Virus record (IMG/VR): IMGVR_UViG_3300037440_000117
Span: 1-42,925 of that record
Source of the DNA: a virus
Strand: one strand, 5' to 3'
Length of the DNA stretch: 42,925 nucleotides
Program-made: the position numbers and the translations under genes
Part shown: positions 1 to 42,925 of the stretch, one piece after another
Position numbering within the stretch: position 1 is the stretch's first letter
Layout of the letters: the number at the start of each line of letters is the position of its first letter
Notes under the pieces: model-generated
The model's database searches: none
What the model was told of the DNA's origin: nothing
The model's input: the letters and a program-made list of their open reading frames with translations, nothing else

Positions 1-127
1 GGCTCGGTGTATTGGAAGGATGAACTCCCACCCGGCGCGACACCGCGAGACACCCGCAACGTGATCGAGAAGTCGATTAAGTGGGCGAAGATTGACGGCT
101 ACCAGGAACTCGATAAAGGCGACTGGG
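1..127. repeat. Terminal direct repeat, left copy (circular-closure overlap)
   Basis: Bases 1-127 (ggctcggtgtattggaagg...ataaaggcgactggg) recur base-for-base at 42799-42925. Confidence 0.95.
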
Positions 128-5297: not shown

Positions 5298-6305
5298 ATG
5301 TATACACCGCTTAGTGGAGGCGGGGCCCTTACCCGCCAGAACATCTCAGACATCAACGCGAATTTTGCGGCGCTCTTTGCCGGCATCACGCCGGGCAACG
5401 TCATTTACTGCAATCCCGCGTCGGCCAACGCGCAGGCACAGGACGGCAGTCAGCAGAAGCCGTATTCCGACCTCCCGACCGCCTATAGCAAGGGCCGGAG
5501 CGGTTTCAATGACGTGATCGTGCTCGTCGGTGATGGGGGCACGGGCGCGACTGCTCGGCTCACCAGCACGTTGACTTGGGCGAAGAATGCGCTGCATCTC
5601 GTTGGCGTCGGGGCGCCGTCTTACAACCCGCGTGCGCGCATTTCGACGCTCTCGGGGGCGACGGCCTTTGCCGGGTTCGTCACGGTCACGGGCACGGGCT
5701 GTATCTTCTACAACTTCGCGCTGTTCAACGACAACGCCATTGCGGCACAGATTACCTGGCTCGATCAGGGCGGTCGGAACTACTACAACAGCGTGATGTT
5801 CGGCGGGATGGGCGATGCGACCTCTGCGGCCGATGCGGACAGTCGCGTGCTGAAACTCGGCGGCTCCGGCGCCTCTGGTGAGAACGTCTTCGAGAACTGC
5901 ACCATCGGGCTCGACACGATCGCACGGTCGGACGCGAATGCGTCGGTGGAATTCGCCGGCAATTCCAAGCGGAACGTGTTTCGGAATTGCCTGTTTCCCG
6001 TGCGGGCGACGGCGGCGACTCCGGTCATCCTGCTGTCGTCTGGAACGAATCCATTGGAGACGTTCCAGTTGTTTGTGAATCCGGTCTTCTGGAACCAGCA
6101 GGCCAACGGATCGGGCACCACGTTAAGTGCGGTCGCAACCTTGGCCGCGAACGGCAATGGCAACGTGGTACTCAAGAATCCCAGCCGGTTCAACGTGACC
6201 GATTGGGGCACGAATGCGACCTCCAACGCGCAGATATACGTGGATGGCCCCGCGACTGGTGCCACGGACGACATCGGTCGAGGCGCGGTAGCGATCGCGA
6301 CGTAA
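5298..6305 (+). CDS. Right-handed parallel beta-helix (pectin-lyase-fold-like) structural protein
   Basis: 335 aa with recurring short G/N/S/V-rich rungs (VTVTGTGCIFYNFALFN, GENVFENCTIG, KRNVFRNCLFPV). Located in the virion module. Confidence 0.5.
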   Translation: MYTPLSGGGALTRQNISDINANFAALFAGITPGNVIYCNPASANAQAQDGSQQKPYSDLPTAYSKGRSGFNDVIVLVGDGGTGATARLTSTLTWAKNALHLVGVGAPSYNPRARISTLSGATAFAGFVTVTGTGCIFYNFALFNDNAIAAQITWLDQGGRNYYNSVMFGGMGDATSAADADSRVLKLGGSGASGENVFENCTIGLDTIARSDANASVEFAGNSKRNVFRNCLFPVRATAATPVILLSSGTNPLETFQLFVNPVFWNQQANGSGTTLSAVATLAANGNGNVVLKNPSRFNVTDWGTNATSNAQIYVDGPATGATDDIGRGAVAIAT

Positions 6306-17378: not shown

Positions 17379-18365
17379 ATGAGTACGTATCTCCTCACGA
17401 AAGACCCCGGCAATCCGCTGATGACGATCCCGATTCCGGGGGAGTCAAAAAGTCAGTACGTGCCGCATGCGGTGGTGCTGCCGAATGGTGAGACGTGGGT
17501 GGCCGTGAAAGGTGATGAGTCGGCGTCGATCCACGCCTACCGCTCGACAGATGGATTCAATTTCACGCGCGAAGGGATCATGCTCGCGCCGACGCCGGGC
17601 GCGTGGGACAGCATCTACGTGAGCGATCCGGTGCTCGTCGTGCAGGGCTCGACGCTGCATCTGTACTACAAGGGGAACAACACCTACGGCTATGGCGGCA
17701 TCGACCTCGGGCACGCGTCTGCGCCAGTCAGTGATCCGATGGCGATGGTCAAGGATGCCAATCCGATTCTGACGAGCGCCGCCGTGCTGGCGTTCTACCA
17801 GACAAACGCGCCGTCGATGGGCCTCACCGAGATTCGCGATCTGTACTTGTCGGATTTCATTCTCGATCCGTGGGGCGTGCCGACGTGGTTCGGCGGGTTC
17901 TACGGGCAAGCGGGTACCCCGTATCGGATCAGCCGATTCCGTGGCGGGTGGACCTCGCCCGCGCCGCAACTCGGCTCGATTCTCGTCGGGCAGGCACCGT
18001 ATGACTTCGTGCAATGCCCCACGGTGCACCTCAACACGCAGACGGGCCGCTATGAAATGTGGTTCACCGAAGGCTACGACGGCAGCAACAACGATCTCCG
18101 GCTGATCAAAGCCGCGTGGTGTCTGCCGGATGGCGAATGGGTGTGGACGCGCTACGCGAATACCTTACTGTCGCCCGGTCCGGGCTGGGACGAGCGGAAA
18201 GTGTTCGCCGGTGCGCTCTTGAAGGGCGGCCCGAAGTACGACACGCCAATCCTGGTGAATGGTGCGATGCGATTCTTTTACTCGGGGACGAGTCATACCA
18301 GCCCGAACACGGCGCAAGCGGGCGCGGTGTCCGTGTTGCCGGTGAATTTGGTGACGCTTGGATGA
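17379..18365 (+). CDS. Beta-propeller glycosidase-like protein (GH43/GH130/DUF377-type pattern)
   Basis: Trimmed to ATG 17379, with GGAGGG 8 nt upstream. Five blade-like repeats, e.g. IHAYRSTDGFNFTREGIMLAPTPGAWDSIYVSDPVLVVQGSTLHLYYKG, GRYEMWFTEG and AMRFFYSG. Confidence 0.45.
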   Translation: MSTYLLTKDPGNPLMTIPIPGESKSQYVPHAVVLPNGETWVAVKGDESASIHAYRSTDGFNFTREGIMLAPTPGAWDSIYVSDPVLVVQGSTLHLYYKGNNTYGYGGIDLGHASAPVSDPMAMVKDANPILTSAAVLAFYQTNAPSMGLTEIRDLYLSDFILDPWGVPTWFGGFYGQAGTPYRISRFRGGWTSPAPQLGSILVGQAPYDFVQCPTVHLNTQTGRYEMWFTEGYDGSNNDLRLIKAAWCLPDGEWVWTRYANTLLSPGPGWDERKVFAGALLKGGPKYDTPILVNGAMRFFYSGTSHTSPNTAQAGAVSVLPVNLVTLG

Positions 18366-18724
18366 GCCGCGCGCTTGACGATCTGTCGCCCCGGATGCGC
18401 CCGTTTGCCGTTGAACTGCTGGCGCGTCTCGTGGAAGCGGGGATCATGGTGATGATTGTCGATACGCTGCGCACGCCTGAAGAGCACATTGCCAACCTTC
18501 GGCGGGGCGTGAGTTGGACGACGCGATCGAAGCATCTCGACGGCAATGCGATCGATCTTGCGCCGTACGAAACCTATGCCCTCCACGGTCCCGATAAATT
18601 GAAATGGGAAGCGAGCGATTCGGCATGGCTGAAGATGGGCCAGATCGGGGAGGCGGTCGGATTAGTGTGGGGCGGTCGATGGATCAAGACCCCCGACTAT
18701 GGGCATTTTGAATTGAAACTGTGA
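18362..18724 (+). CDS. Endolysin, peptidase M15 (VanY / L-Ala-D-Glu peptidase-like)
   Basis: Trimmed to ATG 18362 (ATGA overlap). Contains SKHLDGNAIDL (SxHxxGxAxD) and DYGHFEL Zn-ligand motifs. 120 aa. Confidence 0.8.
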   Translation: MSRALDDLSPRMRPFAVELLARLVEAGIMVMIVDTLRTPEEHIANLRRGVSWTTRSKHLDGNAIDLAPYETYALHGPDKLKWEASDSAWLKMGQIGEAVGLVWGGRWIKTPDYGHFELKL

Positions 18725-18729
18725 GAGGA

Positions 18730-18864
18730 ATGCGAGCGATGCCTGTCTATGTCTACAGGAGCGGGACTGCGCCCGTGGATGAGACGAACGCAGCCCCTTG
18801 TGACCATGAGCCACGTAACAGCCCATGCCCACCGAGGGCGTTTATCGGACGGAGGGCCGGGTGA
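18730..18864 (+). CDS. Possible 44-aa peptide (MRAMPVYVYRS...)
   Basis: GAGAGGA RBS directly upstream. Its stop overlaps the GTG of the next ORF (GTGA). Below the ORF-track size cut-off. Confidence 0.25.
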   Translation: MRAMPVYVYRSGTAPVDETNAAPCDHEPRNSPCPPRAFIGRRAG

Positions 18865-19241
18865 CTGCAACCGCCTTTCCCCTCACGTCCACGGATGTCC
18901 CGGTGTCCCCACCGCGTGAAGCGCGATCGACTGATGTCGCAGTAGGACGCATTACCTACACGACGCAGATGCTGATTGGCGCGATCTTGATGACTGCGAC
19001 GATCATCGGCGCGGTCTACGGTCTGACGGGCGGCATTCGCGAATCGCAACTCCGCACCGAATCAGACATGCGCGATCTGCGCACACGGATGGAATATCAG
19101 CAGCGTGTAAACGAAGCCGATGCCCGCGCGCAAGGTGTGGTGTTCGATAACATGAAAACCACGGTCGAACAACTACGAGCACAGGTGCAACTCTTACAGC
19201 TGCAGTACGCCGAGATCAACAAGCAAATCCGACAACGATAG
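18861..19241 (+). CDS. Membrane-anchored coiled-coil protein (i-spanin-like or lysis accessory)
   Basis: Single TM segment MLIGAILMTATIIGAVYGL, followed by the heptad-like sequence RTRMEYQQRVNEADARAQ...VEQLRAQVQLLQLQYAEINKQIRQR. Sits next to the endolysin. The start is uncertain (18825 or 18861). Confidence 0.35.
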   Translation: MTATAFPLTSTDVPVSPPREARSTDVAVGRITYTTQMLIGAILMTATIIGAVYGLTGGIRESQLRTESDMRDLRTRMEYQQRVNEADARAQGVVFDNMKTTVEQLRAQVQLLQLQYAEINKQIRQR

Positions 19242-19249
19242 AGGCCCTT

Positions 19250-19471
19250 ATGGACGATGCACTTTTGAATTGTTTAACCGGCGCGTGTTGCCCTCCCGGA
19301 GCGAGACAGGCCGCGCTCACAAAGTATCTGTCGCAGTTTATGCCAGAACAGTACGCGGCGATTGCGGCCACGCAGGTATTGACGAATGTAGATCTCGCGC
19401 CGAAAGGCACGATGCAGCCGTTGATTCAGGAAGTGGCCCGGTTGGCACGCGGCGCGGACTACCGACCATGA
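19250..19471 (+). CDS. Hypothetical protein
   Basis: 73-aa ORF with a GAGG RBS. Its stop overlaps the next start. Confidence 0.4.
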   Translation: MDDALLNCLTGACCPPGARQAALTKYLSQFMPEQYAAIAATQVLTNVDLAPKGTMQPLIQEVARLARGADYRP

Positions 19472-20142
19472 GCCTGACTCTCTCGCGTCAGGTCGATCAG
19501 CAGCACCCGGAATTGCTGCAACAGAACATCAACGCGACCTGTTATCAGTTCGTCGTCTACCTGATTCAGGCGTTGCGATCACAAGGGCATCGGGCGTATC
19601 ACGTCTGCAAGACTGCGGGAGAGGGGCAGTACACGCCGCCCGGTTTCCAGCCGCGCGAAGTGACTGGGCTCGACGGGAAGAAATACATCTGTACCGGCGT
19701 CTCGCATGATGCGCTGTGGTGTGATGATCTCCAGTTTGACACCATCGCGCGCGGGAACGATTCACCCGATCCGATCTCGCATCCTGACGGCTCGCACATG
19801 ACGGGCGAGGCGGTGTGGAACGCGATTCCGTCACAGCACTGGCGTCCGCAGAATCCTCCGCTCATGGACGGGAACGGACCACCGCCGGAGCCGCCAGAGC
19901 CTCAACCGCCGATCGTAAAACCCTATCCCGGCGATCCGGTGTGGGATGCCGTCGGCGTGACGTTGTTCGCGGACTACGCGCAAGCCGGACAGGCGCCGAA
20001 TCCGCAGATGGGACGGTGGTTTGGTCGCACGATCTGGGACGCGACCGAGGGCGATGAGAGTGGGGCCGTCCTCACGGTCGAGGCGTCGATCAAGAAGCAT
20101 CGCGCCGAGTGGCGAGCCGTGCTCGGACTGCCGCCGGTCTAG
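19468..20142 (+). CDS. Hypothetical protein (224 aa, central PPPEPPEPQPP linker)
   Basis: Track ORF 19270..20142 trimmed to ATG 19468 (ATGA overlap). Confidence 0.45.
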   Translation: MSLTLSRQVDQQHPELLQQNINATCYQFVVYLIQALRSQGHRAYHVCKTAGEGQYTPPGFQPREVTGLDGKKYICTGVSHDALWCDDLQFDTIARGNDSPDPISHPDGSHMTGEAVWNAIPSQHWRPQNPPLMDGNGPPPEPPEPQPPIVKPYPGDPVWDAVGVTLFADYAQAGQAPNPQMGRWFGRTIWDATEGDESGAVLTVEASIKKHRAEWRAVLGLPPV

Positions 20143-20151
20143 GCGTCTGAC

Positions 20152-20283
20152 ATGGCGAAGACCCCTACAAAGCGGAACATGCAGGACGCCTACATCACCC
20201 TGCATCAATCGCTGAAGAAACAGGTTGTGGCGCTGACCAAGCGAGTCGAGGAGTTGGAACGCCTCGCGAAGGCGAAGACGTGA
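20152..20283 (+). CDS. Possible 43-aa helical peptide
   Basis: ATG 20152. MAKTPTKRNMQDAYITLHQSLKKQVVALTKRVEELERLAKAKT. Its stop overlaps the GTG of a 28-aa TM mini-ORF (20280..20366). Confidence 0.3.
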   Translation: MAKTPTKRNMQDAYITLHQSLKKQVVALTKRVEELERLAKAKT

Positions 20284-20421
20284 ACGCGGCGAGAGGCATC
20301 CTGTTCGGGATCGCGCTCTCCGTGTTGTTGTTTTGGCTCCCGCTTGGCTGTTGGATAGCGCGATGACGTTTACGCCCGAGTCCATCGTGATCATCATTGG
20401 CGCGCGCTCGGACTCGCCATC

Positions 20422-20640
20422 GTGAATATCATCACGGCCCTTCGGCAAGAGTCGAAGATCGCGGCGGTGGAGGCCAAGGCTGACGTGATCGCGGGCCACG
20501 TGAATAGCGCGGCGTCCGCGAGTGTGGCGAAGATTGACGCGTTGACCGAACAAGTTGCCCAGTTGACGGCCTTACGAGCCGACGAGAAGAAAACGGCGGA
20601 ACTGCTCGCGCAAAAAGCCGGGCCGAAAAGGAAATCATGA
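20422..20640 (+). CDS. Hypothetical coiled-coil protein
   Basis: 72-aa A/E/K-rich ORF. Its stop overlaps the next start (ATGA). Confidence 0.4.
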   Translation: MNIITALRQESKIAAVEAKADVIAGHVNSAASASVAKIDALTEQVAQLTALRADEKKTAELLAQKAGPKRKS

Positions 20641-20828
20641 TACCTGCGATCTTTGTTCGACTCCTCATCGCGGCGTTGATCTTCGTCGGCCTCACGCTGG
20701 CGATTCCGGCGTTTGTCGGCATCCTTGGGTTTCCGCTGGATGCGAACTGGCGTATCTTGCTGCAGGTCGCGTGTGCGGCAGTGGCGATCTATTGGGTGTT
20801 CTACGGACGCCCGCAGAGTATCGGCTAA
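20637..20828 (+). CDS. Small multi-TM membrane protein (holin candidate)
   Basis: 63 aa. Hydrophobic spans IFVRLLIAALIFVGLTLAIPAFVGILGF and ILLQVACAAVAIYWVFY. Confidence 0.45.
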   Translation: MIPAIFVRLLIAALIFVGLTLAIPAFVGILGFPLDANWRILLQVACAAVAIYWVFYGRPQSIG

Positions 20829-20836
20829 AGGACACC

Positions 20837-21127
20837 ATGATGAATCCGATGTATCAGAAGATCGCCTTCAGCCTGATTCGCTACGCCCTGATCGCGGGCG
20901 GCGCGGAAGGGCTGATGTCTGATGACGATCTGTCGCAGGCGATTGGCGCGGTCGCGACGCTGATCGCGCTGGGCTGGTCAATCCGGAAGAACTTCAAGGA
21001 GCGCCAGGTGCTCGTCACGGCGCTGCAGGGCGCGGAGCTATCCGAGAACGACGTCAAGTTACTAGTGCAAGATCCAGCCGTCGAGACGCCGAGTGTCACA
21101 GCGCCGAAAGATGTGGTGCCGGCGTGA
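20837..21127 (+). CDS. Two-TM membrane protein, Pam3-gp28-like putative holin pattern
   Basis: Trimmed to ATG 20837. Contains KIAFSLIRYALIAGGAEGL...AIGAVATLIALGWSIRKN, followed by a charged tail. Confidence 0.45.
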   Translation: MMNPMYQKIAFSLIRYALIAGGAEGLMSDDDLSQAIGAVATLIALGWSIRKNFKERQVLVTALQGAELSENDVKLLVQDPAVETPSVTAPKDVVPA

Positions 21128-21399
21128 TGCCGCAGACCATCTTCGACCCGGCGAAGCTCGAGGAAGCCTCCGAGAAGGAACTGGCGAAGGTGAAGGCCGA
21201 GAAGCCGAACTCATTCACGGTGGGCGCGCACGCGGACATTCTCGCCCGCAAGGGTGAAGCGACGATCAGCTACGATAGACGGTGGTACAACGGCTGGGGC
21301 GCGACCGCTTATATCAAGGGATGGTACAACGATACTGCCGTGGTGCCACAAGCGAAGCGCGGAGTCACCATTGGCGGCGAAGGCTCCTACAAATTCTAA
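21124..21399 (+). CDS. Hypothetical protein
   Basis: 91-aa ORF with a GTGATG start overlapping the previous stop. Confidence 0.4.
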   Translation: MMPQTIFDPAKLEEASEKELAKVKAEKPNSFTVGAHADILARKGEATISYDRRWYNGWGATAYIKGWYNDTAVVPQAKRGVTIGGEGSYKF

Positions 21400-21492
21400 G
21401 CCGGTCAACGGCGTTGTGGTGGAGTGGGAACTGCCCGCGACTCCTACAGAACCCGTGCCGACCTGCAATAGGTGCGATACGACGCAGGAGCC

Positions 21493-21521
21493 GGAAGCAT
21501 TAGGCGGGGGGCGCTTCCTTT
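21493..21521. terminator. Weak hairpin between the convergent late operon and the minus-strand protease gene
   Basis: GGAAGC-N14-GCTTCC followed by TTT. It lies inside a doubtful 49-aa CxxC..CxxC ORF (21416..21565). Confidence 0.25.
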
Positions 21522-21542
21522 GTCCGTGCTGTAGCCAAGAGT

Positions 21543-22277
21543 TTACGGTGCCGCGCTCCCAATAGGACGAGAATACGCAATCGCGGCGTGGAACTTCTCG
21601 CGCTCAGACGGGTTGGCATCGCACGACTCAAACAGGTAGTACATCAGATCTAATCGTGAGTCGGTGTGCCAGTAGCCGAGCGCGTGTCCAAGTTCGTGTT
21701 TAATAGTGGAGAGCGACACGGCTGGCCCCCCCGCACAGCGACAGCCAGGCGTGCGCGGGTAGAGCGTGATCAGGTTTCCCCCAACCGCCGCCGATCCACA
21801 GGCTTTCGGGTTCGCCTCTGCGGCCCACTCCACCGTAATCCACCCACGCTGGCTCACCCGCGTCTCCGTCCCGCGTTCGACACCAGCGACTCCGAATTGT
21901 CCAGTCAGCGCACCCGTGGTCGTTTCAAGGGCTGCTGCGGTGTGATTCAGCGTAAAGGCGTCCATTGCATTACCGGCGTTATCGATCGTGCGGAGGTATA
22001 TCCGGGGCGCTTCTGTCTGCCGGCGTAACGGTTGGAGTTGATTCGGCGTCTCAAGCGCGTTGTGGACGAATTGCCGGTAGAACGCCAGATCAAACCGCGC
22101 ATCGGTCGGTGGGAAGGCCGGCGCGGGCGGTGGGGTCACCACTGGCGGCGCAACCGGCGGAGTGACCACGGGCGGGACGACGGCAACCGGCGGCGTCACA
22201 GGCGTCGGGGCGGTCGGACTCGAGCCACAGGCCGCGAGCATGGCGCTAAACATGGTAACGCTGAGAATCAGGCGCAT
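21543..22277 (-). CDS. Secreted lipoprotein Zn-metalloprotease (metzincin motif HExxHxxGxxH)
   Basis: Trimmed to the ATG at 22277 (GAGAGGAcatATG). Signal peptide MRLILSVTMFSAMLAAC carries an LAAC lipobox. A (V/A)(V)TPP proline-rich linker follows. HELGHALGYWH is encoded at 21666..21698, with a Met-turn-like DLMYY downstream. Confidence 0.7.
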   Translation of the reverse strand: MRLILSVTMFSAMLAACGSSPTAPTPVTPPVAVVPPVVTPPVAPPVVTPPPAPAFPPTDARFDLAFYRQFVHNALETPNQLQPLRRQTEAPRIYLRTIDNAGNAMDAFTLNHTAAALETTTGALTGQFGVAGVERGTETRVSQRGWITVEWAAEANPKACGSAAVGGNLITLYPRTPGCRCAGGPAVSLSTIKHELGHALGYWHTDSRLDLMYYLFESCDANPSEREKFHAAIAYSRPIGSAAP

Positions 22278-22461
22278 ATGTCCTCTCGGCTTCAGCTTCG
22301 TGCCGGGACCGACACTTTTCGTAGTTGTTTCGCCCTTTGCACTCGCATATAAGGCAGTCATTATCGTTGCCCCTCGGTTGGAGTCGTCATGCCGTTGTCG
22401 CCTACAGATCGTCGGCGCTGGTTCGCCTTACCCGTGGGAGTGCAGGCGGGTCTCTTAGACA

Positions 22462-23016
22462 TCATTCGCTCGTTCGACGGCCACCGCGCTCCTCGTCGCC
22501 GAGCCGGGCGGTCCCCCGAAGCGTCTTCAAGATTCCCCCCCGCGCCTGTTCGGGCGAGCGTGCGTAGAGATCGACCAGCAGTTGTTGCTCCTCGGTCAAC
22601 TCGGCACGTCCCAGCCGTGCGCGTCTCCGCTGCTCCGGCACGCTCGAAGAGCGATCCAGCACACTGAGAAGGCTGTGCCGCTGTAACTCGGTCATCTGGC
22701 GGAAGTGGCCCAGCAGTTGCGCCTCTAGAGGTTTGACCTCTTGCCAGAGCGATCCAGGCAGCGCGCACATTTCCGACACGCTCATCTGGTAGAAGCTCGT
22801 CACATCGTCGAGCCAATCGAGCGATAGATCGGGGCCACCCGACCTGAGGCGCTTGTGGATCGTGGACGGATCGGCCTTCAGGAAGCGCGCAAGGATCGAG
22901 AAGTTTGGCGTCTTCTCCCGAAGACGTTCGCGCACCATCTCCTGAAATGTGTTCAACGTCGTCACGGACGGTGCCGATCCTACCCGCGAAATGGGCCAGT
23001 TTCCACGGGAAAACAT
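22462..23016 (-). CDS. CI-like repressor (HTH DNA-binding protein, no S24 peptidase domain seen)
   Basis: 184 aa, divergent from a cro-like gene. HTH-like segment FSILARFLKADPSTIHKRLRSG. Confidence 0.55.
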   Translation of the reverse strand: MFSRGNWPISRVGSAPSVTTLNTFQEMVRERLREKTPNFSILARFLKADPSTIHKRLRSGGPDLSLDWLDDVTSFYQMSVSEMCALPGSLWQEVKPLEAQLLGHFRQMTELQRHSLLSVLDRSSSVPEQRRRARLGRAELTEEQQLLVDLYARSPEQARGGILKTLRGTARLGDEERGGRRTSE

Positions 23017-23092: not shown

Positions 23093-23302
23093 ATGTCGAA
23101 AACGTCCGAGAAGCCCCAATACGAGAGTGTCGCCGACTTCATGCGGGCGACCGGGTTGGATGACCTCCAACTGGCGAAGCTGCTCGACTGCGACCGCTCG
23201 CTGGTGACGAAACTCCGACTGGGCCATAAGTTCCGTTCGCTGCGCGGCCCGATGAAGATTTCAAAAACGTGCAAAGTGCCGATTGATCGGCTTGTCGCCT
23301 AG
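23093..23302 (+). CDS. Cro-like HTH regulator
   Basis: 69 aa. Contains VADFMRATGLDDLQLAKLLDCDRSLVTKLRLG (XRE-type HTH). First gene of the rightward early operon. Confidence 0.55.
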   Translation: MSKTSEKPQYESVADFMRATGLDDLQLAKLLDCDRSLVTKLRLGHKFRSLRGPMKISKTCKVPIDRLVA

Positions 23303-23356
23303 ATCACGGATCGACCGTCATGATTGGAACGACCGTTCAGAATCGGTAGTGACAAA

Positions 23357-23806
23357 ATGGCACACGAAACACAGGATCTGATAATCAATGGTTCGTTAAC
23401 GTGCGGAAACATCCGCACAGTGGAGCCGTGTGCGGTCGGCCAAGCAGGGTCGCAGGATACCACACTCGCGGCTCGGTTCTGGTCGAAAGTTGACCGCAAA
23501 TCACCCTCCGAATGCTGGCCGTGGCTCGCGCATGTGTCGAGCGGCTACGGGCGGTTCAAGGTCGCAGGGAAATATCGACAAGCCTCCGCGATCGCGTGGG
23601 AACTCGCGCACGGTCGGAAGCTCCCGGCCTCGCGGCTGATTCGCCACACCTGCGATTACTCGCGCTGCGTCAATCCGGCGCATCTGCGGGCCTCCACTCA
23701 AAAACACAACGTCCACGACGCGATGCGGAAGGGCCGTCATTGCCTGACGAACTGGCCCAAGGCGGTCGCTGCACGTAAGTCGTTCGACCGAAAGGACGCG
23801 GCGTAA
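23357..23806 (+). CDS. HNH homing-type endonuclease (HNH_3 pattern)
   Basis: Contains FWSKVDRKSPSECWPW...GYGRF...AIAWELAHGRKLP...IRHTCDYSRCVNPAHLRASTQKHNVHD. The start may instead be TTG 23324. Confidence 0.75.
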   Translation: MAHETQDLIINGSLTCGNIRTVEPCAVGQAGSQDTTLAARFWSKVDRKSPSECWPWLAHVSSGYGRFKVAGKYRQASAIAWELAHGRKLPASRLIRHTCDYSRCVNPAHLRASTQKHNVHDAMRKGRHCLTNWPKAVAARKSFDRKDAA

Positions 23807-29062: not shown

Positions 29063-29621
29063 TCGCGGCGGTCGTGAACGATACCCCGGTCGATGAGACC
29101 GTGGCGGCAAGCGGCGAAAGTGCGGCGCGAAATTATTTCGGTTTCATAGAGGAATTCGCTTGATTTTGAGAGGCGAAGGGTTGATGATGGCGGAAGTCGC
29201 GGCGAGGCTTGTTCAAGGCCCCGCCGCTGACCTACCGCACTCGCAACCGTTGGATAGAACGGAAGCAAGCGCAAGCAGGCTGATTCTAGCCTACCCGCTT
29301 CTCCCTCTACCAACCAAATCGAGCCAGGTATCGCGTTCTGAATGACGGGTTAGCCGTCTGAACTGGACGCCGGGTTTTTCATCATGCGGGCCGCGAGATC
29401 GGCGGTGGGCAGGCTGTGACGCTTCACAGAACCAGTGATGAACGGCTCGTGATTGACGCGAACGACTGACACGACCGAACGCATACCGCAGACCGTACGA
29501 CCGCTGACGTTTTCGGCGGACGGAGGGGCTGAACAGGATCACTCAGTAGTAGCGAGATGAGACTGCGGGCGCGGTGGATCGGGGAGGGCGGGGCGACGGG
29601 GTTGGTGTCTCTAAATTCTTT

Positions 29622-30002
29622 ATGGAGCAGTTCGCATCAGCGATTCAGCGATTGTGGGCCGAAAAGAAACGGCTCGGTGGAAATCGGCGCAAGCGGCTCG
29701 CGTTTTTGCTGCGATGGGCCGGACTCCACGTCGCGCACAAGAAGGATTACGAAAAGCGGCGTCGAGGTCCAGCGCGGACGAAAAGCTGGAAACGGTTTAC
29801 AAACGCGATGTGCTGGGTCTGCCATGTGGCGAAGGCGACGTGCCGTCACCACATCATCCAGGTGCAGCACGGCGGCGGCAACGACAACAGAAACATCGTG
29901 CCGCTTTGCGACGGGTGCCACGCTGAAGTGCATCCGTGGATGGACGCCTCAGCGCATCCGATGGTGAAAGAAGCGGAAGAAATGGACGCCTTCCGTCTCT
30001 AG
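29622..30002 (+). CDS. HNH endonuclease
   Basis: Trimmed to ATG 29622. Contains CWVCHVAKATCRHHIIQVQHGGGNDNRNIVPLCDGCHAEVH. Confidence 0.75.
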   Translation: MEQFASAIQRLWAEKKRLGGNRRKRLAFLLRWAGLHVAHKKDYEKRRRGPARTKSWKRFTNAMCWVCHVAKATCRHHIIQVQHGGGNDNRNIVPLCDGCHAEVHPWMDASAHPMVKEAEEMDAFRL

Positions 30003-33093: not shown

Positions 33094-33819
33094 GTGACGC
33101 CCTATTACGAGCAAGACGGGATCACGATCTACCACGGGGATTGCCGTGAGGTGCTAGATGCCGTTCGTCCGTACTACGATGCGGTTGTAAGCGATCCGCC
33201 GTGGGGAACAGATACAGCGTGCGACTCAAAGCGATTCACCCGCAAGGCTTCTCCATTTTGGGCGAACGTCGATAACTCCAAAGTCCGCACGCACAAGCAG
33301 ATTGCCAACGACGAGCAGCCTTTCGCGTTTCTGTCATGGGTGCATTCCCCTGAGCGTTGGGTTGATGGTTCTGCGATTCTGTGGGGCGCGAACAATTTCT
33401 GCACTGAATTACCAATCTCAAACGGTTGGCTGATTTGGGATAAGCGCAAGGGCGCCGAGGATATGGCTGAGAAGGGTTGGCCGCTCGGCGAGGCCGAACT
33501 GGCGTGGACGAACATCATCGGAGCCACGCGGGTATTTCGAAATCTATGGTCTGGGCTGTTGCGCTCGTCCGAAAAGGGTGAATTCTACCATCCAACCCAG
33601 AAGCCGATTGCGTTAATGGAGTGGTCGCTGTCGTTTCTCCCTAAAGAGGATCGCGTGATTCTCGATCCGTTTATGGGCGCTGGCTCGACGCTGATCGCGG
33701 CCAAAAGACTCGGCTTACAGGCTATCGGCATCGAGCTTGAGGAAGTGTATTGCGAACGAGCCGCAAAGCGACTATCGCAACCAGTAGACGGGAAGCTTCC
33801 GATGGAGTTCTCCGCATGA
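33094..33819 (+). CDS. DNA methyltransferase (N6_N4_Mtase, beta class; canonical DPPW)
   Basis: Contains VVSDPPWG (motif IV), YHPTQKP and LDPFMGAGSTLIAAKRLG (motif I). Confidence 0.85.
   Translation: MTPYYEQDGITIYHGDCREVLDAVRPYYDAVVSDPPWGTDTACDSKRFTRKASPFWANVDNSKVRTHKQIANDEQPFAFLSWVHSPERWVDGSAILWGANNFCTELPISNGWLIWDKRKGAEDMAEKGWPLGEAELAWTNIIGATRVFRNLWSGLLRSSEKGEFYHPTQKPIALMEWSLSFLPKEDRVILDPFMGAGSTLIAAKRLGLQAIGIELEEVYCERAAKRLSQPVDGKLPMEFSA
33103..33137. repeat. 35-bp exact repeat shared by the 5' ends of the two methyltransferase genes (copy 1)
   Basis: tattacgagcaagacgggatcacgatctaccacgg is identical to 36492..36526. Confidence 0.9.
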
Positions 33820-34039: not shown

Positions 34040-34170
34040 CCCCCGAAGGATCAGGGGACACATTCTCAACCGTGGCGCAATAGACGAGTGAGTTAATAGC
34101 GCTGCGCTCGCGGTGGGCGCAAACGATACCGGACCTAGGTAGACCGAGAGAAGTTTGAGGGAGAGAACCA

Positions 34171-34515
34171 ATGGCGTGGACAAAGTTGGAACCCTATAAA
34201 GGTCAAGTGCATCACGGGTGCCTGAATTGCGGCGGCACTCACGATGTTGCGCCGATGGACATGGTGATCGGCGTCGGATTCGGCTCTGCCGTGGCGACCA
34301 AGGACGGCCAGATCGTTTACGACGAAATGGACGTGATGCGTGGTGGTGGTGATTTCGATGACCTTGCCACGCTTGAGCAGATCGAAGCGATGGCCTTGGC
34401 CGATCCCGATCACGATTGGCGCGTGGAACTTAATGGGCCGCTTCGCGGGCGCTCGTATCAGCGTCACGATACCGCGCACTGGGTGTTGATTAAATCAAAT
34501 CAGGGCTTCGCATGA
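34171..34515 (+). CDS. Hypothetical protein
   Basis: 114 aa, preceded by GAGGGAGAG. Confidence 0.45.
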   Translation: MAWTKLEPYKGQVHHGCLNCGGTHDVAPMDMVIGVGFGSAVATKDGQIVYDEMDVMRGGGDFDDLATLEQIEAMALADPDHDWRVELNGPLRGRSYQRHDTAHWVLIKSNQGFA

Positions 34516-36482: not shown

Positions 36483-37172
36483 ATGAAGCCATATTACGAG
36501 CAAGACGGGATCACGATCTACCACGGTGACGCCCGAGAGGTATTGCCGACGATCCAGCAGCCGGAGAGCTGCATCACTGATCCCGTGTGGCCGAATTCGG
36601 TGTTTCCGAACGTGCCCGATCCGATGCTCCTGTTCGCGCAGACGGTGCGGCTGCTCACCGTCAAACGTCTAGTCGTGCATCTGGGCTGCACAAGCGATCC
36701 GCGTTTTCTCGGTTCGGTGGGCGATGACCGTTTCCCGTTCGTTCGAGTTTGCTGGTTGCGCTATGCGCGGCCGTCCTATCGCGGCCGGATTCTGGTCGGC
36801 TCGGACGTGGCGTACGTGTTCGGAGAGGTGCCGCCGTCTCGTAAGGGCGCGCACGTCCTGAGCGGCGAAGTCGTCGCCAGTAACAACCGGACAAAGTTAC
36901 AACACACCCAGCGCGGCACGGGGCAGTTAGAAGATGTTGATTACGACGCAATGCCACATCCCAGCCCGAGGCGCTACGAGCACGTCGCGTGGCTTGTTGG
37001 CATCTATGGCCTTGGCGGCGTGATTGATCCGTTCTGCGGCACGGGAACCACGCTAGAAGCTGCTCAGCGCGCAGGGATTGCGGCCGTGGGAATCGAGATC
37101 GAGGAAGCGTATTGCGAGATCGCGGCGAAGCGTCTAATTCAGCGGACGCTTCCGATTGAGGCAACGGCATGA
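36483..37172 (+). CDS. Divergent DNA methyltransferase paralog (motif IV is DPVW)
   Basis: The N- and C-termini parallel the 33094 gene (MKPYYEQDGITIYHGDAREVL, IDPFCGTGTTLEAAQRAGIAAVGIEIEEAYCEIAAKRL). The catalytic loop reads CITDPVWP, and HPSPRR replaces HPTQKP. Confidence 0.6.
   Translation: MKPYYEQDGITIYHGDAREVLPTIQQPESCITDPVWPNSVFPNVPDPMLLFAQTVRLLTVKRLVVHLGCTSDPRFLGSVGDDRFPFVRVCWLRYARPSYRGRILVGSDVAYVFGEVPPSRKGAHVLSGEVVASNNRTKLQHTQRGTGQLEDVDYDAMPHPSPRRYEHVAWLVGIYGLGGVIDPFCGTGTTLEAAQRAGIAAVGIEIEEAYCEIAAKRLIQRTLPIEATA
36492..36526. repeat. 35-bp exact repeat shared by the two methyltransferase genes (copy 2)
   Basis: Identical to 33103..33137. Confidence 0.9.
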
Positions 37173-41989: not shown

Positions 41990-42925
41990 TGGCGACTGAC
42001 TACACCGTCCCCGAACTCGTCCGCACCGCCCGCGACTGCTTCGAGCAAGGGGAGCAGGCGACCAAGGATCAGCGGACCCGTAACCTGAAGTCCCTGCGGT
42101 TCTACAACGACGATCAATGGCCCCAGGACATCAAGGACATTCGGGCTGGCACGCCCGCGAACTCGAACAACGGCCAACCGGCCGTCCCGGCTCGCCCGTG
42201 CATCACGATCAACCGCGTCAAGGAGCCGGTGAAGCAAGTCGTGAACCAGATGCGCTCCTCGGACATGGGCGCGGAGATTGTCCCCGCCGACGACTTCGGG
42301 GAGATGCAGGAAGTTGACGATGACGAGATTGAGCTACGCGAAGGGCTCCTGAGACGCATCCAGCGAGCGCCCGAGACGATTGACGCGATTCTTTGGATGG
42401 GGTCACGCGCGGCGATTTGCGGCGAAGGCTACATGGGGGTAATGACGCGCTATCTTCCCGGCAAGACCTTCGATCAGGAGCCCTACGTCCATCGGTTCTA
42501 CAACCAGAATTCAGTGATGCTCGATCCGTCACACGAGCAGCCGGACGGTTCGGATGCCGAGTGGGGCATTGTTGGCACGGATATGCCGTGGTCGCAGTAC
42601 GTGGCCGAATTCGGGATGGTGGCTGGCAAAAAGAATGACGTGTGCGCGCTGGATGATGACAAGTTCCGCGCGCTCGGGGATGAGGCGCCGGGGTGGTTTG
42701 ATTTCAAGGGGCCGGAGAACAAGGCGACTCGTATCTGCCGCGTGGTGGATTACTACTATACGGTCCGGAAGACGCGCGCCCTCTGTGAGCTCGCAGACGG
42801 CTCGGTGTATTGGAAGGATGAACTCCCACCCGGCGCGACACCGCGAGACACCCGCAACGTGATCGAGAAGTCGATTAAGTGGGCGAAGATTGACGGCTAC
42901 CAGGAACTCGATAAAGGCGACTGGG
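41989..42925 (+). CDS. Portal protein, 5' part (continues into 1..1560 through the circular junction)
   Basis: ATG 41989 overlaps the upstream stop (TAATG). The frame stays open to the window end and is in phase with 1..1560 (42805 corresponds to position 7). Joined product is 789 aa. It is absent from the ORF track because there is no stop in the window. It follows the large terminase. Confidence 0.75.
   Translation, partial: MATDYTVPELVRTARDCFEQGEQATKDQRTRNLKSLRFYNDDQWPQDIKDIRAGTPANSNNGQPAVPARPCITINRVKEPVKQVVNQMRSSDMGAEIVPADDFGEMQEVDDDEIELREGLLRRIQRAPETIDAILWMGSRAAICGEGYMGVMTRYLPGKTFDQEPYVHRFYNQNSVMLDPSHEQPDGSDAEWGIVGTDMPWSQYVAEFGMVAGKKNDVCALDDDKFRALGDEAPGWFDFKGPENKATRICRVVDYYYTVRKTRALCELADGSVYWKDELPPGATPRDTRNVIEKSIKWAKIDGYQELDKGDW
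42799..42925. repeat. Terminal direct repeat, right copy (circular-closure overlap)
   Basis: Exact 127-bp duplicate of 1-127. It lies inside one continuous reading frame, the portal gene. Confidence 0.95.

What the first reader, a model, noticed from the sequence alone, without database searches (positions are those of the whole stretch)
21543..22277. Repressor-adjacent, opposite-strand moron encoding a lipoprotein metzincin Zn-protease with a (V)TPP proline-rich stalk
Only two genes in the genome are on the minus strand: the CI-like repressor and, 184 bp downstream of it, this gene. That placement is typical of genes expressed from the prophage.

The product has:
- A textbook lipoprotein signal (MRLILSVTMFSAMLAAC, lipobox LAAC).
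- A ~35-residue stalk of TPPV/VTPP repeats.
- An exact metzincin signature, HELGHALGYWH, with a Met-turn-like DLMYY.

A surface-tethered zinc protease made by a lysogen could act in superinfection exclusion, envelope or receptor remodelling, or host-environment interaction. It is not part of any standard phage module. Its 3' end converges on, and overlaps by 23 bp, the last small late-operon ORF.
Basis: partly seen in the sequence, partly recalled or inferred. Interest (0 to 1): 0.65.

Follow-up and report, generated by a model that had tools for sequence, protein, structure and literature searches.

The report
Phage-borne lipid-anchored metzincin zinc protease
A complete 42.8-kb phage genome carries an optional gene for a membrane-anchored zinc protease of an unnamed family, probably copied from its soil-bacterium host; the enzyme type is well supported, but when it is made and what it cuts are unknown.

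Summary
ORF 21543-22277 (-) encodes a 244-aa protein with three parts:
- a lipoprotein signal (lipobox LAAC, Cys17);
- a roughly 40-residue Pro/Val/Thr linker;
- a 185-residue metzincin domain (HELGHALGYWH, then DLMY eight residues on).

All 120 listed homologues keep HExxHxxGxxH. The lipobox Cys and four further Cys are invariant in a 45-sequence alignment. The AlphaFold2 model (pLDDT 89.7) has the canonical metzincin topology. Its best structural matches are MMPs, ADAM33 and fragilysin, at only 11-17% identity.

No Pfam, NCBIfam, PHROG or PADLOC model covers the family, which has 561 clusters at E<=1e-10.

The gene is accessory. Only 5 of 41 related phage loci carry it. Close chromosomal relatives sit in non-phage contexts in Acidobacteriota.

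In the closest phages it is always the last gene on the repressor strand and faces the lysis cassette. In integrase-bearing relatives, a tRNA fragment (probable attP) lies between the integrase gene and the protease gene.

- The "overlapping late ORF" is probably spurious.
- This genome, a complete circle, has no integrase, so lysogeny is not shown here.

Expression timing and substrate remain inference. Rivals are an accessory lysis role (Listeria Mtz precedent) and a host-fitness protease. Interest is moderate.

The parts
21543..22277 (-). Complete CDS of the lipoprotein metzincin (244 aa plus stop)
   Evidence: ORF and sequence. At least 480 homologues at 50-76% identity. Start position agrees with homologues.
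22227..22277 (-). Signal peptide with lipobox L-A-A-C (residues 1-17; Cys17 is the lipidated first residue of the mature protein)
   Evidence: Cys17 invariant in 45 of 45 aligned sequences. Lipobox pattern found in 102 of 120; most of the other 18 carry a variant lipobox or are N-terminally truncated. It is the only convincing lipoprotein ORF in the genome.
22107..22226 (-). Pro/Val/Thr-rich linker (residues 18-57), ending in the conserved FPPxDxRF motif
   Evidence: Mean Pro fraction 0.34 in the 44 residues after the Cys, across homologues. Low-to-medium pLDDT and no secondary structure. Some chromosomal relatives have a CarboxypepD_reg-type domain here instead.
21543..22106 (-). Metzincin catalytic domain (residues 58-244)
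   Evidence: AF2 pLDDT of about 92-98 over this stretch, with beta-sheet, helix A, active-site helix B and C-terminal helix C. Foldseek probability 1.00 to MMP-7, MMP-3, ADAM33 and fragilysin.
21666..21698 (-). Zinc-binding motif HELGHALGYWH (H194-H204)
   Evidence: H194, E195, H198, G201 and H204 invariant. Motif present in 120 of 120 homologues. It lies on the predicted helix 189-199.
21639..21650 (-). Met-turn D210-L211-M212-Y213, with Met eight residues after the third His
   Evidence: D210 and L211 invariant, M212 in at least 90%. Aligns with DLMY of fragilysin.
22278..22461 (-). 184-bp spacer between the HTH gene and the protease gene; a promoter here is possible but not shown
   Evidence: No sigma-70-like site, terminator or tRNA-like element found. 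In relatives this slot holds an integrase plus a tRNA fragment, a small ORF, or 195-742 bp of spacer.
22462..23016 (-). XRE-type HTH protein in the CI position (putative repressor), upstream on the same strand
   Evidence: 33% identity (E 1e-19) to the L004 186-aa protein with Pfam HTH_31/HTH_26 hits. 50% identity to the L049 HTH protein. No Pfam hit of its own.
23093..23302 (+). Small divergent ORF in the Cro position (69 aa)
   Evidence: 37-62% identical ORFs sit at the same divergent position in L001, L004, L036 and L040. No Pfam family.
21400..21542 (.). Convergent intergenic gap between the protease gene and the last conserved late gene
   Evidence: No canonical terminator, and folding is no better than shuffled sequence.
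21124..21399 (+). Last conserved gene of the late/lysis operon (91 aa), convergent with the protease gene
   Evidence: Coding-like composition (GC3 0.78). 47-54% identical ORF next to the protease gene in L001, L004, L036 and L037.
20771..21127 (+). Holin (Phage_holin_10), marking the lysis cassette that the protease gene faces
   Evidence: Pfam PF23987, 33.9 bits against a cut-off of 27.
21254..21565 (+). ORF overlapping the protease 3' end by 23 bp; probably not a gene
   Evidence: GC3 0.60, below GC2 0.62; codon-adaptation index 0.47, against 0.60-0.74 for neighbouring genes.

Best explanation
**What the protein is (shown or well supported)**
- The gene encodes an exported, lipid-anchored zinc endopeptidase of the metzincin clan.
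- After signal peptidase II cleavage, Cys17 would be acylated.
- A roughly 40-residue proline-rich linker would hold the domain away from the membrane. I estimate about 10 nm if the linker is fully extended (not computed here).
- The domain is a single 185-residue catalytic unit without a prodomain. Zinc would be bound by H194, H198 and H204; E195 is the general base; M212 forms the Met-turn; four invariant Cys probably form two disulfides.

**What the gene is (supported)**
- It is an accessory gene of a lineage of about 39-44-kb phages with a P22-like portal.
- It was probably captured from a chromosomal lipoprotein-metzincin family of Acidobacteriota.
- It sits in the cargo slot between the immunity module and the end of the late operon, on the strand opposite all lytic genes.

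**How it likely works (inferred, not shown)**
- It is transcribed independently of the late operon, together with or just downstream of the repressor-type gene.
- In relatives that integrate, it would lie at the prophage end next to the attachment site.
- There it would act as a lysogenic-conversion protease that cuts a protein in the periplasm or on the cell surface.
- My preferred role is cleavage of a receptor, or of an incoming phage's ejected proteins. That would exclude related phages, by analogy with the lipoproteins Llp, Cor and Ltp.
For: **Identity**
- Motif-level Pfam hits: Astacin 23.8 bits (cut-off 22.5) and M10 19.6 bits (cut-off 24).
- 43 of 45 family members hit M10 and 35 of 45 hit Astacin.
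- A profile search of PDB sequences is best against fragilysin, [20 protein letters not shown].
- AF2 pLDDT 89.7 with canonical metzincin secondary structure.
- Foldseek E of about 3e-5, probability 1.00, to MMP-7, MMP-3, ADAM33 and fragilysin, and to viral MMPs.
- C17, H194, E195, H198, G201, H204, D210, L211, C160, C179, C181 and C219 are invariant.

**Export**
- Lipobox pattern found in 102 of 120 homologues; most of the other 18 carry a variant lipobox or are truncated.
- No match to the cytoplasmic ImmA/M78 family.

**Accessory status**
- Present in 5 of 41 related phage loci.
- L104 carries cytidylyltransferase/methyltransferase-like and glycosyltransferase-like genes (judged from sequence motifs) in the same slot.
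- Slightly atypical codon usage.
- Chromosomal relatives (47-53% identity) lie in non-phage contexts in Acidobacteriota MAGs and in unbinned metagenome contigs, one of which (L057) carries an Acidobacteria-typical permease gene.

**Position**
- The order Cro-like | HTH gene -> protease gene | <- lysis cassette is the same in L001-L006, L036, L040, L049 and L051.
- The order integrase -> tRNA fragment -> protease gene occurs in L035 and L038 (Rfam tRNA 33.7 and 30.3 bits). Weaker cases are L042 and L050.
Against: - No expression data exist. No promoter or terminator was detectable.
- This genome has no integrase and no attP-like tRNA fragment. Lysogeny is therefore unproven for it and for several close relatives.
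- In four more distant phages the gene lies elsewhere. In two of these (L041, L046) it sits just upstream of the terminase gene on the same strand, which suggests lytic-cycle expression.
- No hit in PADLOC defence models.
- No substrate or partner can be inferred; neighbouring genes vary.
Confidence: 0.55

Rival explanations
1. Accessory lysis or egress factor. The tethered protease would weaken the envelope, for example by cutting proteins that tie the outer membrane to peptidoglycan. This would help endolysin/holin lysis or replace a spanin, as the phage-derived Listeria metzincin Mtz (with its partner Tim) sensitises cells to phage lysins.
For: - The gene abuts the lysis cassette in nearly every close relative.
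- It is the only lipoprotein ORF in the genome, and no o-spanin-like lipoprotein is present.
- Its proline-rich linker resembles that of the o-spanin Rz1 (my own knowledge).
- Precedent: PMC8235301. In Listeria prophages, mtz-tim lies downstream of holin-lysin and enhances lysis and virion release.
- Many relatives lack an integrase, so the leftward unit must also serve lytic growth.
- In L041 and L046 the gene lies just upstream of terL on the same strand.
Against: - It is on the opposite strand to the whole late operon and converges on it.
- It groups with the repressor and integrase genes.
- It is sporadic (5 of 41) among phages with the same tail and lysis genes, so it is not a required lysis component.
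- Chromosomal relatives exist with no phage context.
- No TIMP-like partner is conserved.
Confidence: 0.2
2. Host-fitness cargo (an auxiliary gene). The phage would give its host an extra copy of a native surface or periplasmic protease. That protease would degrade extracellular proteins for nutrition, or process host envelope proteins, with no role in phage-phage conflict.
For: - The closest non-phage relatives are chromosomal lipoprotein metzincins of Acidobacteriota. They have the same lipobox-spacer-catalytic domain layout.
- The family is large, with 561 clusters at E<=1e-10.
- The slot holds other surface-modifying cargo in L104.
Against: - The phage versions consistently replace the host spacer domain with a short Pro-rich linker.
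- There is no evidence for release from the cell.
- Host benefit cannot be tested in silico.
Confidence: 0.17
3. ImmA/IrrE-type anti-repressor. This would be a cytoplasmic zinc protease next to an XRE repressor that cleaves the repressor to induce the prophage.
For: - A HExxH protease gene sits directly downstream of an XRE-type HTH gene. That is the typical ImmR-ImmA layout (my own knowledge; also mentioned in PMC8235301).
Against: - No Pfam Peptidase_M78 hit even at E<=1.
- The extended HExxHxxGxxH motif plus Met-turn, and the metzincin fold.
- A near-universal lipoprotein export signal and four invariant Cys indicate an extracytoplasmic protein.
- In relatives, an integrase gene and attP separate it from the repressor.
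Confidence: 0.02

Closest known systems
Matrixins (MEROPS M10A; MMP catalytic domains, bacterial karilysin)
   Same: - HExxHxxGxxH, followed by a small hydroxyl residue and the Met-turn exactly eight residues after the third His (MMP consensus HSxxxxALMYP recalled from memory; here HTDSRLDLMYY).
- A single domain of about 165-185 residues.
- Best Foldseek matches: MMP-7, MMP-3 and MMP-1, with target-normalised TM about 0.6.
- 43 of 45 family members hit Pfam M10.
   Different: - Only the motif region aligns (residues 191-220, 19.6 bits, below the 24-bit cut-off).
- 11-17% identity and rmsd 4-7 A.
- No cysteine-switch prodomain.
- Lipid-anchored.
- Four conserved Cys that the aligned MMP region does not cover.
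Fragilysin / BFT of Bacteroides fragilis (MEROPS M10C by classification; adamalysin-like fold, from my own knowledge)
   Same: - Best sequence-profile match among solved structures: [20 protein letters not shown] against HELGHALGYWHTDSRLDLMY.
- Among the top Foldseek matches.
- A lipobox-like LLAACS in its signal peptide is visible in the alignment.
- Carried on a mobile element (my own knowledge).
   Different: - NCBIfam fragilysin scores 23.2 bits against a cut-off of 190.7.
- Fragilysin has a prodomain of about 190 residues and is a secreted toxin (my own knowledge).
- Here there is no prodomain, and a Pro-rich tether instead.
Listeria monocytogenes Mtz-Tim (PMC8235301)
   Same: - A metzincin of phage origin, exported, with HExxHxxGxxH/D plus a Met-turn.
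- Found next to a CI/Cro-type switch, or next to holin-lysin genes in prophages.
- An accessory gene.
   Different: - Mtz has a type I signal peptide and is secreted. The lipoprotein in that system is its partner Tim.
- No Tim-like partner here.
- Gram-positive host.
- Sequence relationship not tested.
Prophage lipoproteins that block superinfection (T5 Llp, phi80/N15 Cor, Streptococcus TP-J34 Ltp); my own knowledge
   Same: - Phage-encoded lipoproteins.
- Ltp and Cor are expressed from the lysogeny side of the genome; T5 Llp is made early in lytic infection.
- They act in the envelope on a receptor or on entering phage proteins.
- Ltp lies in the lysogeny module between the integrase and repressor genes.
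   Different: - Those proteins act by binding, not catalysis, and have no protease domain.
- No homology.
- An exclusion phenotype is not shown here.
P22 gtrABC-type conversion cargo next to int/attP; my own knowledge
   Same: - An optional cargo slot between the attachment site and the end of the late operon in a phage with a P22-like portal.
- L104 carries transferase-like (possibly glycan-modifying) genes in the same slot.
   Different: - The cargo here is a protease, not a glycosyltransferase.
- The window genome has no integrase or attP.

Membership tests
Metzincin clan (MA(M)) | Extended zinc motif HExxHxxGxxH/D on the active-site helix | tested here: met
   HELGHALGYWH at residues 194-204, invariant in the 45 aligned sequences and present in 120 of 120 homologues. 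It lies on the predicted helix 189-199.
Metzincin clan (MA(M)) | Conserved Met-turn downstream of the third zinc ligand | tested here: met
   D210-L211-M212-Y213. M212 is kept in at least 90% and DL[ML] in 117 of 120. It aligns with DLMY of fragilysin.
Metzincin clan (MA(M)) | Fold: five-stranded beta-sheet plus helices A, B and C, split by the active-site cleft | tested here: met
   AF2 model: strands 92-99, 132-136, 146-151, 161-163 and 169-172; helices 107-125, 189-199 and 225-234. Foldseek probability 1.00 to MMPs, ADAMs and fragilysin.
Metzincin clan (MA(M)) | Zinc-dependent endopeptidase activity | not testable with these tools
   Needs the purified protein, an E195A control and inhibition by a chelator.
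Matrixin, Pfam PF00413 / MEROPS M10A | Whole-domain profile match above the curated cut-off | tested here: not met
   19.6 bits against a cut-off of 24, covering residues 191-220 only. 43 of 45 relatives match at E<=0.01; the window protein's own match, the only one whose extent was reported, covers just the motif region.
Matrixin, Pfam PF00413 / MEROPS M10A | Cysteine-switch propeptide (PRCGxPD) | tested here: not met
   No prodomain. The mature protein goes Cys17, then the linker, then the catalytic domain. There is no Cys between residues 18 and 159.
Astacin, Pfam PF01400 / MEROPS M12A | Whole-domain match; motif HExxHxxGFxHExxRxDRD; Met-turn SxMHY | tested here: not met
   23.8 bits is just over the 22.5 cut-off but covers only residues 188-214 of a 189-position model. 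The residue after the third His is Thr, not Glu, and the Met-turn is DLMY.
Fragilysin, NCBIfam TIGR03935 | Equivalog-level profile score | tested here: not met
   23.2 bits against a cut-off of 190.7.
Bacterial lipoprotein (SPase II substrate) | Positively charged n-region, hydrophobic h-region, lipobox [LVI][ASTVI][GAS]C | tested here: met
   M-R, then LILSVTMFSAMLA, then L-A-A-C17. The Cys is invariant. The pattern is found in 102 of 120; most of the other 18 carry a variant lipobox or are N-terminally truncated. No SignalP or LipoP run was possible.
Bacterial lipoprotein (SPase II substrate) | Actual lipidation and membrane localisation | not testable with these tools
   Needs globomycin sensitivity, palmitate labelling and cell fractionation.
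Moron / lysogenic-conversion gene | Present or absent among otherwise syntenic phages | tested here: met
   Present in 5 of 41 loci that share the tail protein and have at least 6.5 kb downstream. L104 has different cargo in the slot.
Moron / lysogenic-conversion gene | Own promoter and terminator, and expression in the lysogen | tested here: inconclusive
   No sigma-70-type promoter or intrinsic terminator was found, but the host's promoter type is unknown. The window has no integrase. A tRNA fragment (probable attP) lies next to the gene in L035 and L038.
ImmA/IrrE anti-repressor (Pfam PF06114, M78) | M78 domain in a cytoplasmic protein | tested here: not met
   No M78 hit at E<=1. An export signal is conserved.
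Known anti-phage defence proteins (PADLOC) | Match to a defence-system model | tested here: not met
   No hit at E<=0.01.

The most novel reading that the evidence does not exclude
The protease would be a catalytic superinfection-exclusion or conversion factor. It would be anchored in the envelope and cut a phage receptor, or the proteins that an incoming phage ejects into the periplasm.

In the relatives that integrate, its expression would be switched on by integration itself. The attP core (the 5' half of a tRNA) ends 12-14 nt before the start codon. Recombination would therefore place the gene directly behind the host tRNA promoter (promoter capture).

To my knowledge, no protease-based exclusion system acting in the periplasm has been described.
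Probability: 0.2. Interest if true: 0.7.

Novelty: new variant of a known kind. Interest (0 to 1): 0.45.

Why it matters
**If the protease modifies the envelope of its host**
- It would add a catalytic, proteolytic mechanism to phage-encoded surface conversion or exclusion. The mechanisms known so far rely on binding proteins and glycan-modifying enzymes.
- It would do so in Acidobacteriota, an abundant soil phylum whose phages are almost entirely uncultured.

**Independent of function**
- The result defines a sizeable, unnamed metzincin family: 561 clusters at 50% identity with E<=1e-10. No Pfam, NCBIfam or PHROG model describes it.
- The family has a minimal, prodomain-free, lipid-tethered architecture that could be annotated and tested.

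**Side observation**
- In L035 and L038 a tRNA 5' half abuts the start codon. If confirmed, this would be an unusual attachment-site arrangement with a built-in expression switch.

**Limit**
- Phage-borne metzincins and prophage lipoproteins are both already known, and nothing here demonstrates a function. The finding is a good annotation and a testable lead, not a surprise.

Tried and rejected
**Searches that found nothing**
- Nucleotide and protein searches of 50,697 GenBank phage records.
- PHROGs for the protease and eight neighbouring proteins.
- PADLOC.
- Sigma-70 promoter and intrinsic terminator scan; folding of the convergent gap gave a z-score of 0.18.
- Operator-like repeats in the immunity region: only short, chance-level repeats.
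- tRNA or attP-like element near the gene in the window.
- An exact-match scan of metagenome contigs for the L038 tRNA-protease junction, intended to find an integrated form.
- The literature search produced only the Listeria Mtz-Tim precedent. Nothing on this family turned up.

**Checks that could not be completed**
- Looking up the window protein's own contig: not on record.
- Measuring the three-His and Met-turn geometry, or linker docking: model coordinates are not exposed to scripts.

**Ideas rejected**
- ImmA-type anti-repressor: no M78 similarity, and the protein is exported.
- A conserved partner or inhibitor gene: the small ORFs flanking the gene in relatives (60, 76, 32, 39 and 44 aa) are unrelated to each other and absent from the window.
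- The longer start at 22361: non-coding composition.
- The linker as a DNA tandem repeat.
- A third minus-strand gene at 34135-34479: the overlapping plus-strand ORF looks like the real one.
Full report

Yes. The minus strand carries an ORF ending at 21543, with in-frame starts at 22361 and 22277. From 22277 it encodes 244 residues with these parts:
- MRLILSVTMFSAMLAAC, a charged n-region, a 13-residue hydrophobic core and the lipobox L-A-A-C17.
- A Pro/Val/Thr-rich stretch, residues 18-57.
- HELGHALGYWH at residues 194-204.
- DLMYY at residues 210-214.

The 28 codons upstream of 22277 have non-coding composition (GC3 0.50). Homologues begin at the MR/MK position.

An XRE-type HTH gene (22462-23016) lies 184 bp upstream on the same strand. 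It faces a divergent 69-aa ORF in the Cro position (23093-23302). Codon-position GC analysis found no other credible minus-strand gene.

Two details need correction:
- The plus-strand ORF 21254-21565, which overlaps the 3' end by 23 bp, looks non-coding (GC3 0.60, below GC2 0.62; codon-adaptation index 0.47). The last late gene conserved in relatives is 21124-21399.
- The linker is not a tandem repeat at the DNA level.

**2. What is the protein?**

*Sequence libraries give only motif-level matches.*
- Pfam: Astacin 23.8 bits (cut-off 22.5, residues 188-214) and Matrixin 19.6 bits (cut-off 24).
- NCBIfam: fragilysin and LegP, both far below their cut-offs.
- PHROGs and PADLOC: nothing.
- 50,697 GenBank phage records: nothing.

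*The family is nevertheless large and conserved.*
- The 5.8-billion-protein search returned at least 480 hits at 50-76% identity. Almost all are unnamed metagenomic proteins.
- A profile search of 1.84 billion cluster representatives found 561 clusters at E<=1e-10.
- In a 45-sequence alignment, C17, H194, E195, H198, G201, H204, D210, L211, C160, C179, C181 and C219 are invariant. M212 is kept in at least 90%.
- All 120 listed homologues have HExxHxxGxxH, and 117 have DL[ML] just after it. A strict lipobox pattern is met by 102; most of the other 18 carry a variant lipobox or are N-terminally truncated fragments.
- 43 of the 45 aligned members hit Pfam M10 and 35 hit Astacin at E<=0.01. The extent of the match was reported only for the window protein, where it covers the motif region alone.

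*The predicted structure agrees.*
- The AlphaFold2 model built on this alignment is confident: mean pLDDT 89.7, and about 92-98 across the catalytic domain.
- It shows the canonical metzincin layout: five strands, helix A, the active-site helix at 189-199 and a C-terminal helix.
- Foldseek against the PDB gives probability 1.00 and E of about 3e-5 to MMP-7, MMP-3, MMP-1, ADAM33, snake-venom metalloproteinases, fragilysin and karilysin. Identity is only 11-17% and target-normalised TM about 0.5-0.6.
- Against viral models, the best matches are insect-virus MMPs and a few unstudied phage 'M10' proteins.
- A profile search of PDB sequences is best against fragilysin, [20 protein letters not shown].
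- The Met lies eight residues after the third His, as in fragilysin and in the MMP consensus as I recall it.

*Conclusion on identity.* The protein belongs to the metzincin clan but to none of its described families. It has no prodomain. The four invariant Cys and the export signal place it outside the cytoplasm. This rules out the obvious alternative for a HExxH gene next to an XRE repressor, an ImmA-type anti-repressor. There is also no M78 hit, even at E<=1.

**3. What is the genome?**

- The first 127 nt of the window equal the last 127 nt, and an open reading frame of about 800 codons matching the P22-like portal family spans the junction. The window is therefore a complete circular assembly of 42,798 unique bases.
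- It encodes a large terminase, an ERF and YqaJ recombination pair, two DNA methylases, several HNH endonucleases, an M15 endolysin and a holin.
- No integrase was found. Pfam scans of the larger early-region ORFs found none, and tblastn with four integrases from relatives found none.
- There is no tRNA gene and no tRNA-like fragment.
- The protease is the only convincing lipoprotein ORF in the genome, so no o-spanin candidate exists.

**4. Comparative context**

*Closest phages.* In related phage contigs of about 39-44 kb the arrangement matches the window. A Cro-position ORF diverges from an HTH gene, which is followed on the same strand by the protease gene, which converges on the lysis cassette. 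This holds in L001-L006, L036, L040, L049 and L051.

*Relatives with an integrase.* In L035 and L038 an integrase gene sits between the HTH gene and the protease gene.
- Between the integrase and protease genes lies a tRNA fragment in the same orientation.
- In L035 it is the 5' half of a tRNA-Pro(GGG)-like sequence, ending 12 nt before the ATG (Rfam tRNA 33.7 bits).
- In L038 it is the 5' half of a tRNA-Arg(UCG)-like sequence, followed by AGGAG and the ATG (30.3 bits).
- L042 and L050 have weaker fragments resembling a tRNA 3' end.
- These are probable attP cores. Integration would send the integrase/repressor genes and the protease gene to opposite ends of the prophage.
- In the two 5'-half cases, integration would place the protease gene directly behind the host tRNA promoter. 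This is inference; no integrated form was recovered.

*Other positions.* In L033 a helicase-methylase gene precedes the protease gene. In four more distant phages it lies elsewhere. In L041 and L046 it sits just upstream of the terminase gene on the same strand.

*The gene is optional.* Of 41 IMG/VR loci that share the window's 509-aa tail protein and extend at least 6.5 kb downstream, only 5 carry a relative. L104 fills the slot with genes that, judged from sequence motifs, resemble a cytidylyltransferase/methyltransferase and a glycosyltransferase.

*Chromosomal relatives.* Relatives at 47-53% identity occur in non-phage neighbourhoods in Acidobacteriota MAGs (L007, L008) and in unbinned metagenome contigs (L054, L056, L057, L062). 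L057 carries a gene typical of Acidobacteria, the duplicated orphan permease. The full-length copies (L007, L008, L062) keep the lipobox but carry a spacer domain of roughly 100 residues, of the carboxypeptidase-regulatory type by the Pfam hits of two aligned relatives, in place of the Pro-rich linker.

*Codon usage.* The window gene is slightly atypical for this genome: GC3 0.69 and adaptation index 0.60, against 0.62-0.74 for neighbouring genes.

Together these results support an accessory gene captured from an Acidobacteriota host family. It is carried in the cargo slot between the lysogeny module and the end of the late operon.

**5. How it most likely works**

*Shown or well supported:* an exported, lipid-anchored, single-domain zinc endopeptidase held on a flexible Pro-rich tether.

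*Inferred:*
- It is transcribed apart from the late operon, with or just after the repressor-type gene. In integrating relatives it would be transcribed from the prophage end.
- It cleaves a protein in the periplasm or on the cell surface.

I favour a conversion or exclusion role, meaning cleavage of a receptor or of an incoming phage's ejected proteins. This rests on analogy with the phage lipoproteins Llp, Cor and Ltp, and with the P22 gtr slot (my own knowledge).

Rough weights for the role:

| Role | Weight |
|---|---|
| Exclusion / conversion | 0.35 |
| Accessory lysis or egress | 0.2-0.25 |
| Host-fitness protease | 0.2 |
| Other | remainder |

The lysis rival deserves respect for four reasons:
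- The Listeria Mtz-Tim pair is a phage-derived metzincin system that sits by a CI/Cro switch or after holin-lysin genes. It increases sensitivity to phage lysins (PMC8235301).
- This genome has no spanin-like lipoprotein.
- Many relatives, including the window, lack an integrase.
- Two distant phages place the gene just before the terminase gene.

Three points count against it: the opposite strand, the association with repressor, integrase and attP, and the sporadic distribution.

**6. Comparison with known families, and novelty**

- The protein works like a matrixin or fragilysin-type metzincin.
- It fails the membership tests for M10A (score below cut-off, no cysteine switch), M12A (wrong family-specific residues, motif-only match) and fragilysin (23 against 191 bits).
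- It is best described as an unnamed metzincin family with a lipobox-linker-catalytic domain architecture. Phage members have swapped the host spacer domain for a Pro-rich tether.
- Phage-borne metzincins and prophage lipoproteins are both known. I therefore rate this a new variant of a known kind, of moderate interest.
- The tRNA 5' half that abuts the start codon in L035 and L038 is the most unusual by-product and is worth following up.

**7. Limits**

- There are no expression data and no host.
- No signal-peptide predictor was available.
- Promoter scans assume a sigma-70 consensus.
- Host assignment rests only on the taxonomy of the chromosomal relatives.

Noticed in passing
L035 7943-7987; L038 2578-2621; L042 about 5970-6000; L050 about 235-275: In relatives with an integrase, a tRNA fragment (probable attP core) lies between the integrase and protease genes. 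In L035 and L038 it is the 5' half of a tRNA (Pro-GGG-like and Arg-UCG-like) and ends 12-14 nt before the protease start codon. A 5'-half attP is unusual. It would put the protease gene behind the host tRNA promoter after integration.
   Followed up: partly
window 1-127 and 42799-42925: The first and last 127 nt are identical, and the portal ORF spans the junction. The window is a complete circular assembly of 42,798 unique bases. No integrase, partition gene or tRNA was found, although a CI/Cro-like gene pair is present.
   Followed up: yes
window 18059-21399: The lysis cassette (M15 endolysin, Phage_holin_10 holin, several small ORFs) has no lipoprotein ORF, so there is no recognisable o-spanin or u-spanin. 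The 91-aa last gene (21124-21399) ends in ...GGEGSYKF, which resembles an outer-membrane beta-barrel C-terminal signature, but it has no signal peptide.
   Followed up: partly
L104 18857-20771: A related phage carries different cargo in the slot after the lysis cassette: a 363-aa cytidylyltransferase/methyltransferase-like protein and a 304-aa glycosyltransferase-like protein, judged by eye from sequence motifs. Both are on the late strand. This suggests a variable slot for surface-modification cargo.
   Followed up: no
L010, L012, L013, L015, L017, L018, L021, L023 (about 20-60 nt upstream of the metzincin-like genes): Distant chromosomal relatives in Vicinamibacterales and other Acidobacteriota share upstream motifs resembling sigma-54 promoters (GCACG-N4-TTGCA) and a further conserved ..GGTAA.. 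element. The window gene has no such motif.
   Followed up: no
L001 7887-8069; L036 2544-2774; L004 10792-10890; L051 5852-5971; L050 1138-1272: Small ORFs flank the protease gene in relatives: a Cys-rich 60-aa ORF and a 76-aa ORF upstream, and 32-44-aa single-transmembrane peptides overlapping the stop codon. They are unrelated to each other and absent from the window.
   Followed up: partly
L033 5722-7998: In one relative the gene directly upstream of the protease gene is a 758-aa helicase plus N6/N4 methyltransferase fusion instead of the HTH repressor. It may be a defence or anti-defence gene in the same leftward unit.
   Followed up: no
L060 3-392 and 1370-1444: A contig starts inside a protease homologue. 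A complete tRNA-Asn gene lies about 1 kb downstream on the opposite strand, followed by host-like genes. This may be a prophage end next to its integration site.
   Followed up: no
window 23324-23806, 29574-30002, 33094-33819, 36483-37172: The early region carries at least two HNH endonuclease genes and two DNA methyltransferase genes.
   Followed up: no
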